Source of the DNA: Eledone cirrhosa
Lineage: Eukaryota
Direction of reading: 5' to 3'
Assembly: GCA_964016885.1 (NCBI GenBank)
Contig: OZ024744.1
Span: forward strand, 44,950,001 to 45,014,000
Length of the DNA: 64,000 nt
Translations under genes and position numbers: made by a program
Shown here: one piece after another, positions 48,134 to 48,989 of the stretch
Position numbering within the stretch: position 1 is the stretch's first letter
Layout: every line of letters starts with the position of its first letter
The notes under the pieces: model-generated
What the model was told of the DNA's origin: nothing
The model's database searches: none
What the model saw: only the letters and a program-made list of their open reading frames with translations

Positions 48134-48673
48134 CTACTGTACGTCTGCATACATATATGTATGTACGTATAGATACTTATATTTAAGTAACAGCCGTACT
48201 AAGAGTGAGAAATGAAATTTCGTTTCATTTTTTCCGTTCATCATTTTCGGTACCCCGGCCGATTAACTCACGCGATATGCAAATTGGGCTGCTCAGCCGT
48301 TAATATGCATAAGGAAAGTATATACTTTCAGACGTTCAACCATCTGGCAGGAAGGTATACGTTGCTGACGATAGCTAATAAGCTTGAAACTAGTACAGCG
48401 TTCCTTTGTCAGTGTTGAACAAATGAGCAAACGATGGTTGCTAGACACTGCACGGCTTAATTCGGGATGTTTGTTTACTAACACACCGAGCATTATAATA
48501 AATGTTCGGTGAATCCATACGTACATATATATATGTGTGCATGTATGTATATATATATATATATACATACTACTGTACGTCTGTATACATATATCTATGT
48601 ACGTATACATACTTATATTTAAATAACAGCCGTACTAAGAGTAAGAAATGAAATTTCGTTTCATTTTTTCCGT
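47346..48673. repeat. Third array of the retrozyme-like 434-bp family: ~1.4 minus units + ~1.6 plus units, inversion at ~47965
   Basis: HHR at 47599-47639(-) and a fully canonical HHR at 48360-48400(+). Confidence 0.85.
48360..48400 (+). ncRNA. Canonical type I HHR of the retrozyme-like unit
   Basis: cgttg-CTGACGA-tagctaataagctt-GAAA-ctagt-A-cagcg; stem I extends via ctggcagg/cctttgtcag beyond an internal loop; predicted cut after 48395. Confidence 0.9.
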
Positions 48674-48989
48674 ATATATATATATATATATACATATATA
48701 CATATATCGACAGACGGCAGTCGATCCACAAGATCCCAGACCTCATTCGCTTAACGAGTGGGGTGCACCACGCCAAATCGGACCAAGGAAACAATGTTTC
48801 CCTTGGTCTTTCCAATTGCTAATACTATCTGTCTGTCGCAACTCCAGGTAGAAGGAGCAACTTGAAATAAAGTGTAATACTCAAGGATAAAACGCATCGC
48901 TCGTTCCGGGAATTGAAATCACAACCTCACGATTGCCAATCCATATAATCAATGTATTTGTGAGTGAATAATGATAATATTATAATATC

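What the first reader, a model, noticed from the sequence alone, without database searches (positions are those of the whole stretch)
48630..48680. All retrozyme array ends stop at one fixed hairpin terminus, ~270 nt downstream of the cleavage site
Seen: outer ends at ~3281, ~13222, ~47346 and ~48673 (and approximately ~11570) fall at the same unit position, just after aaatgaaa-tttcg-tttcattt (8-bp stem-loop) plus ttccgt, and run directly into (TA)n. The inner ends are variable. Inference: reverse transcription starts at a specific internal RNA signal rather than at the ribozyme-cut end. Arrays longer than one unit then imply a circular or multimeric template, with the hairpin as a candidate RT recognition site.
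Basis: partly seen in the sequence, partly recalled or inferred. Interest (0 to 1): 0.75.

Follow-up and report, generated by a model that had tools for sequence, protein, structure and literature searches.

The report
Retrozyme arrays carry Penelope-type fixed ends
Thousands of copies of a 436-base ribozyme-bearing repeat in this 3-Gb genome end at one of two fixed points on either side of a small hairpin and run into TA repeats, which is the known signature of Penelope-like retrotransposons, whose enzyme likely starts copying the RNA at internal sites and not at the ribozyme cut; this is a clear new example of a mechanism published in 2024, not a new mechanism.

Summary
The hairpin and the ..TTTTTTCCGT(TTAT)|(TA)n end are at 48646-48673. 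The same end (A, unit 436-440) closes the arrays at ~3281, 13223 and 47345. The end near 11570-11640 is a second fixed terminus (B, unit 376-381, ..CATACTTATA|(TA)n), about 57 nt upstream and before the hairpin.

Of 151 arrays from 99 fetched loci plus the window, 74 end at A, 57 at B and 20 elsewhere. Their 5' ends are spread evenly and avoid neither the ribozyme cut nor any other point. Exact junction strings occur 3450 (A) and 2383 (B) times genome-wide.

Half the insertions are head-to-head pairs. Of 36 pairs with both ends classed, 35 have one A and one B end.

These are the published hallmarks of Penelope-like elements (PLEs): 5' truncation, partial tandems, an inverted arm, a "tail" at one end only, and (TA)n targets. 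The tail was explained in 2024 by internal initiation of reverse transcription at two adjacent sites. An autonomous PLE family in the same genome shows the same architecture.

The hairpin's role as the recognition signal is not shown: it is conserved, without significant covariation.

The parts
48646..48666 (+). Terminal hairpin (8-9 bp stem, loop UUUCG/UUC), unit 409-429
   Evidence: -4.2 kcal/mol, z -3.25
48619..48673 (+). 'Tail': the stretch between the two fixed termini (after unit 381 to unit 436), holding the hairpin. It is present at A ends and absent at B ends.
48613..48618 (+). Internal copy of the B site (..ACT|TATAT|TTAAAT), where B-type arrays elsewhere switch to (TA)n
   Evidence: 2383 exact B junctions genome-wide
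47965..48673 (+). Right arm of the finding's array: 1.6 units, 5' end at unit 181, A-type 3' end at 48673
47345..47970 (-). Left, inverted arm: 1.4 units, 5' end at unit 233, A-type 3' end (..TTTTTTACCGTTCAT|ATAT) at 47345-47349. With the right arm it forms the only A+A pair among 36 classed pairs.
   Evidence: the arms are 89.2% alike over 659 nt
48347..48418 (+). Minimal type I hammerhead: helix I GGAAG..ACGUUG / CAGCGU.UCCUU, core CUGACGA, helix II AGCU-AAUA-AGCU on a U-U base, GAA, palindromic ACUAGU, cut after A48395
   Evidence: Rfam HH9 19.7 bits, E 0.0052 in a 91-nt search, below the gathering score of 52. Pair counts on 113 copies.
48193..48259 (+). Predicted extended stem-loop across an internal A site. 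The hairpin sits on a lower stem formed by unit 392-407 with unit 4-22 of the next unit; the A site (48233-48241) lies in its 3' bulge.
   Evidence: -19 and -22.7 kcal/mol, 0 of 200 shuffles as stable. No significant covariation.
12380..13223 (+). Array 2, right arm: 1.9 units, A-type end ..TTTTTTCCGTTTAT|ATAT
11636..12382 (-). Array 2, left inverted arm: 1.7 units, B-type end (..CGCATACTTA|(TA)n) with no hairpin. The (TA)n runs out to 11572.
3281..4098 (-). Array 1 (older subfamily, ~90% alike): 1.9 units, A-type end ..CATTCTTATCCA|TATATA at 3281-3285, 5' end at unit ~50 at 4098, (TA)n on both sides
47048..47344 (.). (TA)n tract abutting the left A end
48674..48707 (.). (TA)n tract abutting the right A end

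Best explanation
The arrays are insertions of a 436-nt non-coding, hammerhead-bearing repeat whose 3' ends fall at two fixed unit positions next to (TA)n (A at 436-440, just after the hairpin; B at 376-381, about 57 nt upstream), and they were most likely made by target-primed reverse transcription by the RT/GIY-YIG enzyme of a Penelope-like element, which is predicted to start cDNA synthesis at these two internal RNA sites.

Shown here:
- There are two termini, and 5' ends are spread uniformly.
- Arrays run across the ribozyme cut.
- 86% of start-side junctions carry (TA)n, against 29% of 5' flanks.
- Head-to-head pairs are frequent and carry one A and one B end in 35 of 36 cases.
- The two arms of a pair are more alike than copies from different loci.
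- An apparently intact PLE family in the same genome has the same two-terminus, one-tail, head-to-head, (TA)n architecture.

Inferred:
- A nicked (TA)n 3'-OH pairs with 2-4 nt (UAU / UAUA) at A or B and is extended towards the RNA 5' end.
- The template is an uncleaved multimeric or circular RNA, and synthesis stops at a variable point.
- When both DNA strands prime, one uses A and the other B, and the two cDNAs are joined head to head.
- The 55-64-nt tail with its hairpin, between the two start sites, would be the part of the RNA held by the enzyme. This last step is the weakest (about 0.45).
For: Termini. Of 151 arrays, 74 end at A, 57 at B and 20 elsewhere. The exact A junction occurs 3450 times and the exact B junction 2383 times in the genome, with reversed-pattern controls at 0. 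The 33-nt hammerhead core occurs 9643 times.

5' ends. They are uniform (chi-square p 0.63). Three of 151 lie near the cut and 146 of 151 arrays span the cut.

Pairs. There are 52 head-to-head pairs. Of the 36 with both ends classed, 35 are AB, 1 is AA and 0 are BB; binomial P = 5e-10. In the unbiased sample alone the count is 21 of 21. Within-pair arm identity has a median of 94.3% (n=44), against 89.8% between loci (n=134).

Flanks. (TA)4 or more lies within 30 nt at 119 of 139 A/B junctions, at 15 of 51 5' flanks of solo arrays, and in 249 of 1980 background windows.

Microhomology alone does not set the site. Only 8 of 151 ends fall in the unit's own ~90-nt TA-rich stretch (histogram, bins 300-369).

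Coding capacity. No frame longer than 146 codons is open in the array. The genome has 10596 first-look GIY-YIG candidates, and all 150 scored are above the cut-off.

Autonomous family P41. [quoted passage not shown] Its 3' segment ends either at ..CTTTTTCTTTATA|(TA)n (7 cases) or 63 nt further at ..CTTTCTAAT|(AT)n (15 terminal cases). Two more hits reach q735 internally and one stops 9 nt short of it. All 5 head-to-head pairs carry one of each end.

Literature. The PLE PAc initiates at two adjacent internal sites in a stem-loop, the tail is the sequence between them, both DNA strands are cut and extended, and the target is AT-rich (PMC11167929, main text read). The PLE hallmarks, including a tail at only one end and a (TA)n bias, are in PMC8557442 (passages read).
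Against: - No RNA or biochemical data: no RNA run is listed for this sequence.
- No significant sequence homology links the repeat to any of the 16 PLE loci fetched. There is only a short shared motif, TTTCAT-pyrimidine-rich-TTTAT, at the start site.
- The published tails are 30-40 bp; here the tail is 55-64.
- The 2024 paper stresses no homology between primer and start site, whereas here 2-4 nt of TA homology is available.
- That paper saw no strand difference in start-site use, whereas here A and B are strictly paired.
- Hairpin pairing is not supported by covariation.
- The P41 tail is not predicted to be structured (z 0.0 and -0.8).
- 20 of 151 ends lie elsewhere.
- Sample 1 (39 loci) was chosen by a query that ends at A, so it over-represents A ends.
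Confidence: 0.8

Rival explanations
1. SINE-like element copied by a 'stringent' LINE. The hairpin plus a (TA)n microsatellite would be the element's own 3' tail, the transcript would end in (UA)n, and the RT would start in that tail at the RNA's real 3' end. No internal initiation would be needed.
For: (TA)n is tied to the start-side junction (119 of 139) far more than to the 5' flank (15 of 51), as expected if it travels with the element. A hairpin just before a simple-repeat tail is what stringent LINE/SINE pairs show (recalled, not read here).
Against: - B ends lack the hairpin altogether, yet they are as common as A ends in the unbiased sample (16 B against 14 A solo arrays) and are paired with A ends in 35 of 36 pairs.
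- In tandem units the A site is followed directly by the next unit (61 of 103 hairpins).
- Fixed-end head-to-head pairs and a one-sided tail are PLE traits (PMC8557442), and a PLE family in this genome shows them.
Confidence: 0.08
2. Circular-RNA rolling-circle model with no specific signal. The hammerhead-cut, ligated 436-nt circle is copied by any RT, and the ends are set only by where a (TA)n DNA end can pair with the RNA. The hairpin would be irrelevant.
For: Both sites read UAU/UAUA, so 2-4 nt of pairing with a (TA)n primer is possible. Arrays longer than one unit (47 of 94 arms in sample 2, up to 4.5 units there) fit a circular template. The circle model is the published proposal for retrozymes (PMC7761336, passages read).
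Against: The unit's own long TA-rich stretch (unit ~285-375) would pair far better, yet it holds only 8 of 151 ends. The strict A+B pairing needs more than microhomology. The hairpin block is conserved above average in old subfamilies.
Confidence: 0.1
3. Helitron-like rolling-circle DNA transposon: a 3' hairpin a few bases before the end, and insertion into AT.
For: The hairpin lies 7-11 nt before the A end and the flanks are AT-rich.
Against: - The ends read ..CCGT / ..TTTAT, not CTRR.
- 5' ends are uniformly variable instead of fixed.
- A second terminus lacks the hairpin.
- Each unit carries a hammerhead.
- The PLE family shows the same architecture.
Confidence: 0.02
4. Not a mobile element. 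This would be a satellite spread by segmental duplication and trimmed by recombination or slippage with neighbouring (TA)n.
For: The unit has internal TATA strings that could recombine with (TA)n.
Against: There are thousands of dispersed loci on many contigs, each with different flanks and different 5' ends but the same two 3' ends. Arms within a pair are more alike than copies between loci.
Confidence: 0.02

Closest known systems
Penelope-like elements: 'tail' and internal initiation of reverse transcription (PAc of Anolis; Frangieh et al. 2024, PMC11167929; structural hallmarks in Craig et al. 2021, PMC8557442)
   Same: Two adjacent fixed cDNA start sites downstream of the hammerhead, with the tail being the sequence between them. 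Tail at one end only. 5' truncation, partial tandems and an inverted head-to-head arm. AT-rich/(TA)n target. Ribozyme cleavage not used to define the ends.
   Different: No ORF (non-autonomous). The tail is 55-64 nt against 30-40 bp. The start sites lie 218-282 nt after the cut, against ~85-92 nt. 2-4 nt of TA homology is available at the start sites. A and B are strictly paired in double-primed insertions, which the in vitro work did not see.
Non-LTR retrozymes of animals (Cervera & de la Pena 2020, PMC7229834; Li, Clavereau & Pollet 2026 preprint, 10.64898/2026.07.22.740005)
   Same: Short AT-rich tandem unit (436 nt, GC 0.365) with a type I hammerhead in every unit. Thousands of copies. Proposed to depend on PLEs.
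   Different: The hammerhead is the minimal PLE type (helix III reduced to the palindrome ACUAGU), not the canonical form. In the passages and term searches I made in these papers there is no mention of fixed termini, tails or head-to-head arms. Their model has a circular RNA template with no defined start.
L1 twin priming (recalled, not read here)
   Same: Both strands of the target prime on RNA, giving an inverted 5'-side segment joined head to head.
   Different: In L1 the second primer anneals at an arbitrary internal place. Here the outer end of the inverted arm is a fixed site.
Stringent LINE/SINE 3'-end recognition, stem-loop plus short-repeat tail (recalled, not read here)
   Same: A hairpin close to the start of reverse transcription, and a simple repeat at the junction.
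   Different: A second hairpin-less terminus, tandem units and the one-sided tail are not features of that system.

Membership tests
Penelope-like element insertion (non-autonomous derivative) | Fixed 3' end(s) with variable 5' truncation | tested here: met
   131 of 151 3' ends fall in two windows (13.5 expected). 5' ends are uniform, p 0.63.
Penelope-like element insertion (non-autonomous derivative) | Partial tandem copies (pseudo-LTR-like) | tested here: met
   47 of 94 arms in sample 2 exceed one unit, the longest 1941 nt there and 2144 nt in sample 1. TRF finds 1.9 copies at 3275-4098.
Penelope-like element insertion (non-autonomous derivative) | Inverted 5'-truncated copy joined head to head | tested here: met
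   52 pairs in 99 loci plus the window, with variable inner junctions.
Penelope-like element insertion (non-autonomous derivative) | Short 'tail' extension present at only one end | tested here: met
   35 of 36 classed pairs have one A (with tail) and one B (without) end. The length is 55-64 nt, against the published 30-40 bp.
Penelope-like element insertion (non-autonomous derivative) | AT-rich / (TA)n insertion sites | tested here: met
   119 of 139 start-side junctions, against 249 of 1980 background windows.
Penelope-like element insertion (non-autonomous derivative) | Hammerhead motif in the repeated part | tested here: met
Penelope-like element insertion (non-autonomous derivative) | ORF with RT and GIY-YIG endonuclease | tested here: not met
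   No long open frame in the arrays, hence 'non-autonomous'. Such ORFs are abundant elsewhere in the genome.
Penelope-like element insertion (non-autonomous derivative) | 3'-end sequence shared with an autonomous PLE of the same genome | tested here: inconclusive
   No BLAST match to 16 PLE loci other than inserted copies. Only a short motif is shared with family P41's start site. 16 of more than 10,000 candidate loci were examined.
Penelope-like element insertion (non-autonomous derivative) | cDNA synthesis starts inside the RNA | not testable with these tools
   Inferred from B ends being paired with A ends. It needs biochemistry or RNA end mapping.
Non-LTR retrozyme | Type I hammerhead in each unit of a 150-450-bp, low-GC tandem repeat | tested here: met
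   Unit 436 nt, GC 0.365. The window holds 8 hammerhead copies.
Non-LTR retrozyme | Canonical helix III and loop 1-loop 2 contacts | tested here: not met
   Helix III is 2 bp around a 2-nt loop (palindrome ACUAGU). Rfam scores 19.7 bits against a gathering score of 52, and nothing at gathering.
Non-LTR retrozyme | Expressed as circular RNA | not testable with these tools
   No RNA run is listed.
Hammerhead ribozyme, type I | Core CUGANGA..GAAA..H with helices I and II | tested here: met
   In 113 distinct copies 95.3% of cells are paired, against 34-50% with slid partners. Pair 19/55 reads UG 77, AU 17, GU 11, UA 3, CG 1. The distal pair 9/63 is broken in 26 of 113.
Hammerhead ribozyme, type I | Self-cleavage | not testable with these tools
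   Minimal forms are reported to cut as dimers (cited in PMC7761336, passage read).
Helitron | 5' TC and 3' CTRR ends, fixed 5' end | tested here: not met
   Ends read ..CCGT/..TTTAT and ..CTTATA, and 5' ends are uniform.

The most novel reading that the evidence does not exclude
One enzyme complex, one tail, two start sites. In every double-primed insertion the two DNA strands are extended from the two sides of a single bound stem-loop, one from A and one from B. This would explain why PLE tails sit at only one end. In addition, the (TA)n tract found at start-side junctions but mostly not at 5' flanks is laid down by the telomerase-related RT through repeated copying of the UAU at the start site. 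PLEs and their retrozyme parasites would then be a source of this genome's very abundant (TA)n microsatellites, and not merely guests in them.
Probability: 0.15. Interest if true: 0.75.

Novelty: new member of a known kind. Interest (0 to 1): 0.42.

Why it matters
Animal retrozymes are thought to spread through circular RNAs, with PLEs as the suspected helper, but the papers I could search give no junction-level evidence. Here the junctions themselves carry the PLE signature: two fixed start sites, a one-sided tail, head-to-head arms and (TA)n. An autonomous PLE in the same genome shows the same pattern.

This ties a retrozyme-type repeat to PLE machinery through its mechanism and not only through co-occurrence. 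It shows that the ribozyme cut does not define the ends. It also gives a large natural data set, thousands of junctions, on start-site choice. That includes a strict A+B rule for double-primed insertions, which the in vitro system could test.

Tried and rejected
- Rfam at gathering score over the whole window gave no family. At E up to 10 over 47300-48720 there were 142 matches, none a hammerhead and mostly TA-rich miRNA look-alikes. Only a 91-nt search gave a sub-threshold HH9 match.
- GUC at 48408-48410 as the cut site was rejected. Helix I does not form there, whereas cutting after A48395 gives an 11-bp helix I and matches the Rfam alignment.
- RNA evidence: no RNA holder is listed. Laying contigs of four coded runs gave only family variants, with no starts or ends.
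- Snap-back (self-primed) origin of the inverted arm was rejected, because the inner junctions of the two arms usually lie at different unit positions.
- The same-RNA 'follower' model, which predicts an A arm no longer than the B arm plus the tail, is not met: A is the longer arm in 24 of 35 pairs.
- Target-site duplications: the longest shared string between the 5' flank and the sequence beyond the TA tract averages 4.39 nt, against 4.34 in shuffled pairings, with none of 8 nt or more in 36 cases.
- Hairpin and extended-stem covariation is not significant.
- Structure in the tail of PLE family P41: none beyond shuffles.
- Partner by homology: BLAST of the unit against 16 PLE loci found only inserted or related repeat copies in L050 and L051.
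- An apparent excess of 5' ends at unit 122-130 in sample 2 was judged an artefact of seeding that sample on the 33-nt core at unit 128-160. It is absent from sample 1.
- Earlier notes of this scan: none for this genome or sequence.

Full report
**What is at the site.** Window 47345-48673 holds two arms of a 436-nt repeat joined head to head. A minus-strand arm lies at 47345-47970 and a plus-strand arm at 47965-48673, with (TA)n on both outer sides. I number the unit from window 48238 (= 1) to 48673 (= 436). The plus arm ends with the hairpin AAATGAAATTTCGTTTCATTT (48646-48666), then TTTCCGT, then (TA)n. The hairpin motif occurs 9 times in the window at up to 3 mismatches, against 0.02 expected. 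It folds at -4.2 kcal/mol, z -3.25. Two more arrays lie at 3281-4098 (minus strand, 1.9 units, also found by TRF) and at 11636-13223 (a minus arm joined to a plus arm).

**The ribozyme.** Rfam finds nothing at gathering score, and no hammerhead at E up to 10 over 1.4 kb.
- Reading the sequence gives CUGACGA, helix II AGCU-AAUA-AGCU on a U-U base, GAA, and the palindrome ACUAGU followed by A|C. With the cut after 48395, helix I forms as ACGUUG/CAGCGU plus GGAAG/UCCUU.
- A 91-nt Rfam search returns exactly this alignment to Hammerhead_HH9, at 19.7 bits (gathering 52), E 0.0052.
- On 113 distinct copies, 95.3% of pair cells are standard pairs, against 34-50% with slid partners. Pair 19/55 covaries (UG 77, AU 17, GU 11, UA 3, CG 1). 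One distal pair is broken in 26 copies.
- It is therefore a minimal, PLE-type type I hammerhead. A U-U at the base of helix II and a very short helix III have precedents (PMC7229834, passages read).
- The A end lies 278-282 nt after the cut.

**How many, and where they end.**
- The genome (3.0 Gb, 1796 contigs) gave 2591 first-look candidates for the unit. Exact matches number 9643 for the 33-nt ribozyme core, 3450 for the A junction ..TTTCATTTTTTCCGTTTAT+ATATATATA and 2383 for the B junction ..GTACGTATACATACTTATA+TATATATATA. All reversed-pattern controls were 0.
- I fetched two samples. Sample 1 is the 39 best full-unit matches. It is biased towards A, because the query ended at A. Sample 2 is the first 60 distinct loci along contig C1 that hold the exact ribozyme core. 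It is conditioned only on an intact core.
- I mapped arrays by BLAST against a unit trimer. I dropped matches lying wholly in the unit's TA-rich part, and arrays under 180 nt.
- Of 151 arrays, 74 end at A (unit 425-444), 57 at B (374-392) and 20 elsewhere, scattered. If ends were uniform, 13.5 would fall in those 39 positions.
- B is really unit 376-381 (..CATACT|TATAT). BLAST runs on a few bases into the TA tract. The window's end near 11640 is of this kind.
- In sample 2, solo arrays split 14 A, 16 B and 6 other.
- 5' ends are uniform (chi-square p 0.63). Three of 151 lie within 5 nt of the cut (3.8 expected), and 146 arrays run across the cut.

**Pairs.**
- 52 head-to-head pairs were found, 23 in sample 1 plus the window and 29 in sample 2.
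- Where both outer ends could be classed (36 pairs), 35 have one A and one B end, 1 has two A ends and none has two B ends. The binomial P is 5e-10, and sample 2 alone gives 21 of 21.
- The remaining 16 pairs have one end elsewhere.
- The single A+A pair is the finding's own array. Its arms are only 89.2% alike, close to the between-locus median.
- In general, arms of a pair are more alike (median 94.3%, n=44) than arms from different loci (89.8%, n=134). Pairs from old subfamilies reach 99%. That fits one event or one kind of template.
- Inner junctions differ between the two arms, which argues against simple snap-back.

**Flanks.**
- (TA)4 or more lies within 30 nt at 119 of 139 A/B junctions. 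It lies at only 15 of 51 5' flanks of solo arrays, and in 249 of 1980 background windows.
- No target-site duplication was detectable beyond the TA tract.
- A few old copies end in (TC)n instead.
- Both sites read UAU/UAUA, so a (TA)n primer could pair over 2-4 nt. The two A variants (CCGT|AT and CCGTTTAT|AT, about 1:3) fit slightly different registers.
- The unit's own ~90-nt TA-rich stretch holds only 8 of 151 ends, so pairing alone does not choose the site.

**The hairpin.**
- In a tandem context, the hairpin sits on a longer predicted stem formed by unit 392-407 with unit 4-22 of the next unit. The A site lies in its 3' bulge. The energies are -19 and -22.7 kcal/mol, z -3.2 and -3.6, with 0 of 200 shuffles as stable.
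- That stem needs sequence beyond the A site, which would fit internal initiation.
- On 87 copies, however, the pairs are 96.3% standard against 96.2% in shuffles. Only two cells show a double change (G-C to A-U, in the 75%-identical sister family of L050).
- In subfamilies under 88% identity, the hairpin block has a mismatch rate of 0.05-0.09 against 0.129 overall. The A and B sites themselves vary (0.22-0.24).
- The hairpin is thus conserved and plausibly structural, but its role is not shown.

**What is known.**
- Craig et al. 2021 (PMC8557442, passages read) list the PLE hallmarks: heavy 5' truncation, partial tandems, an inverted 5'-truncated copy at the 5' end, a 30-40-bp tail often at only one end, and (TA)n bias in some clades.
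- Frangieh et al. 2024 (PMC11167929, main text read) purified a PLE protein. They showed that it cuts and extends both strands of AT-rich DNA. It starts reverse transcription at two adjacent internal sites in a stem-loop downstream of the hammerhead. The tail is the sequence between these sites, and ribozyme mutants do not change insertion.
- The retrozyme papers propose circular templates and PLE helpers (PMC7229834, PMC7761336 and the 2026 preprint 10.64898/2026.07.22.740005; abstracts and passages read). In the terms I searched (tail, terminus, initiation, inverted, truncat) they do not describe termini.
- A further search found no paper on tails of non-autonomous PLEs. Preprint supplements were not available to me.

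**An autonomous relative in the same genome.**
- GIY-YIG (PF01541) gave 10596 first-look candidates, and all 150 scored were above the cut-off.
- Of 16 fetched loci, six belong to one family (L041, L042, L045, L048, L049, L051; protein 85-98% alike). [quoted passage not shown]
- Its 3' segment ends in 7 cases at ..GATTTCATCYCTTTTTCTTTATA|(TA)n. In 15 cases it ends 63 nt further, at ..CCTCACTTTCTAAT|(AT)n. Two further copies read through that point into the next unit, and one hit stops 9 nt short.
- All 5 head-to-head pairs (L045, L049, L051, L054, L110) have one end of each kind.
- The upstream site resembles the repeat's A site (TTTCAT, pyrimidine-rich run, TTTAT). This is too short to count as homology.
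- I found no CUGANGA in this element, and its tail is not predicted to fold.
- A third, short family with the end ..CCTCCGTTAT|(AT)n and its own inverted arm lies beside several copies.

**Conclusion.** The fixed terminus is real, and there are two of them. Together with the other features they identify the arrays as non-autonomous PLE-type insertions. The 'one terminus' claim and the hairpin's role go beyond the evidence. Three things appear to be new: the demonstration for a retrozyme-type repeat, the size of the natural sample, and the strict A+B rule. Three things remain open: whether the template is circular or multimeric, which PLE is the helper, and whether the (TA)n is a target or a product.

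Noticed in passing
window 13224-13250: Just outside the A end of array 2, after (TA)4, the sequence reads ACGGTTATCTATATAT. Its reverse complement, ..GATAACCGTTAT|ATAT, looks like a ~12-nt remnant of an A-type end facing the other way (tail to tail).
   Followed up: no
L010:3830-4060, L031:3440-3600, L006:2190-2240: A second short non-coding family ends in ..CATTTCCTCCGTTAT|(AT)n and has its own inverted arm ending at ..CTCGTTCCTAT|(AT)n. It has the same architecture and a similar terminal motif to the repeat studied.
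   Followed up: partly
window ~13430-13485, minus strand; also L049:1674 and L052:3358: Hammerhead-like string CTGATGAAG(C/G)GTGATACCCAGAAAC..GTGTC. Rfam gives no hammerhead there at E up to 1.
   Followed up: partly
L050:7883-10000: A sister family, 72-78% identical to the unit, forms a tandem of at least 4.5 units with a ~490-nt period (longer internal TA tract). It has CUGAUGA in the core and compensatory changes in helix I. It lies 2.7 kb downstream of a PLE open frame.
   Followed up: partly
L095:2314, L099:4143, L105:2306: Some copies of older subfamilies run from the A site into (TC)n instead of (TA)n.
   Followed up: no
L041:3378-9088 (and L042, L045, L048, L049, L051): Young PLE family with a 938-aa open frame. 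Head-to-head ORF copies occur in L045. No CUGANGA motif was found in the element.
   Followed up: partly
window 58154-63996 and 40606-41792: A 5.8-kb array of CACCACCAC-type 9/30-nt repeats and a 1.2-kb impure (TA)n tract (TRF).
   Followed up: no
window 48979-49183; flanks in L024 and L026: A 112-nt unit (..GGCACAAGGCCAGCAAT..TTACTGGTACTTTATTT..) is present 1.8 times in the window. Similar strings lie beside repeat copies at other loci, so it is likely a dispersed SINE-like repeat.
   Followed up: no
L040, L045, L049, L055: A recurrent motif CTGATGATTTCTAAAGAATGAAACAGTTCTAGTCC sits near PLE copies. It also has a U-U at the base of helix II, so it may be another PLE-type minimal hammerhead.
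   Followed up: no
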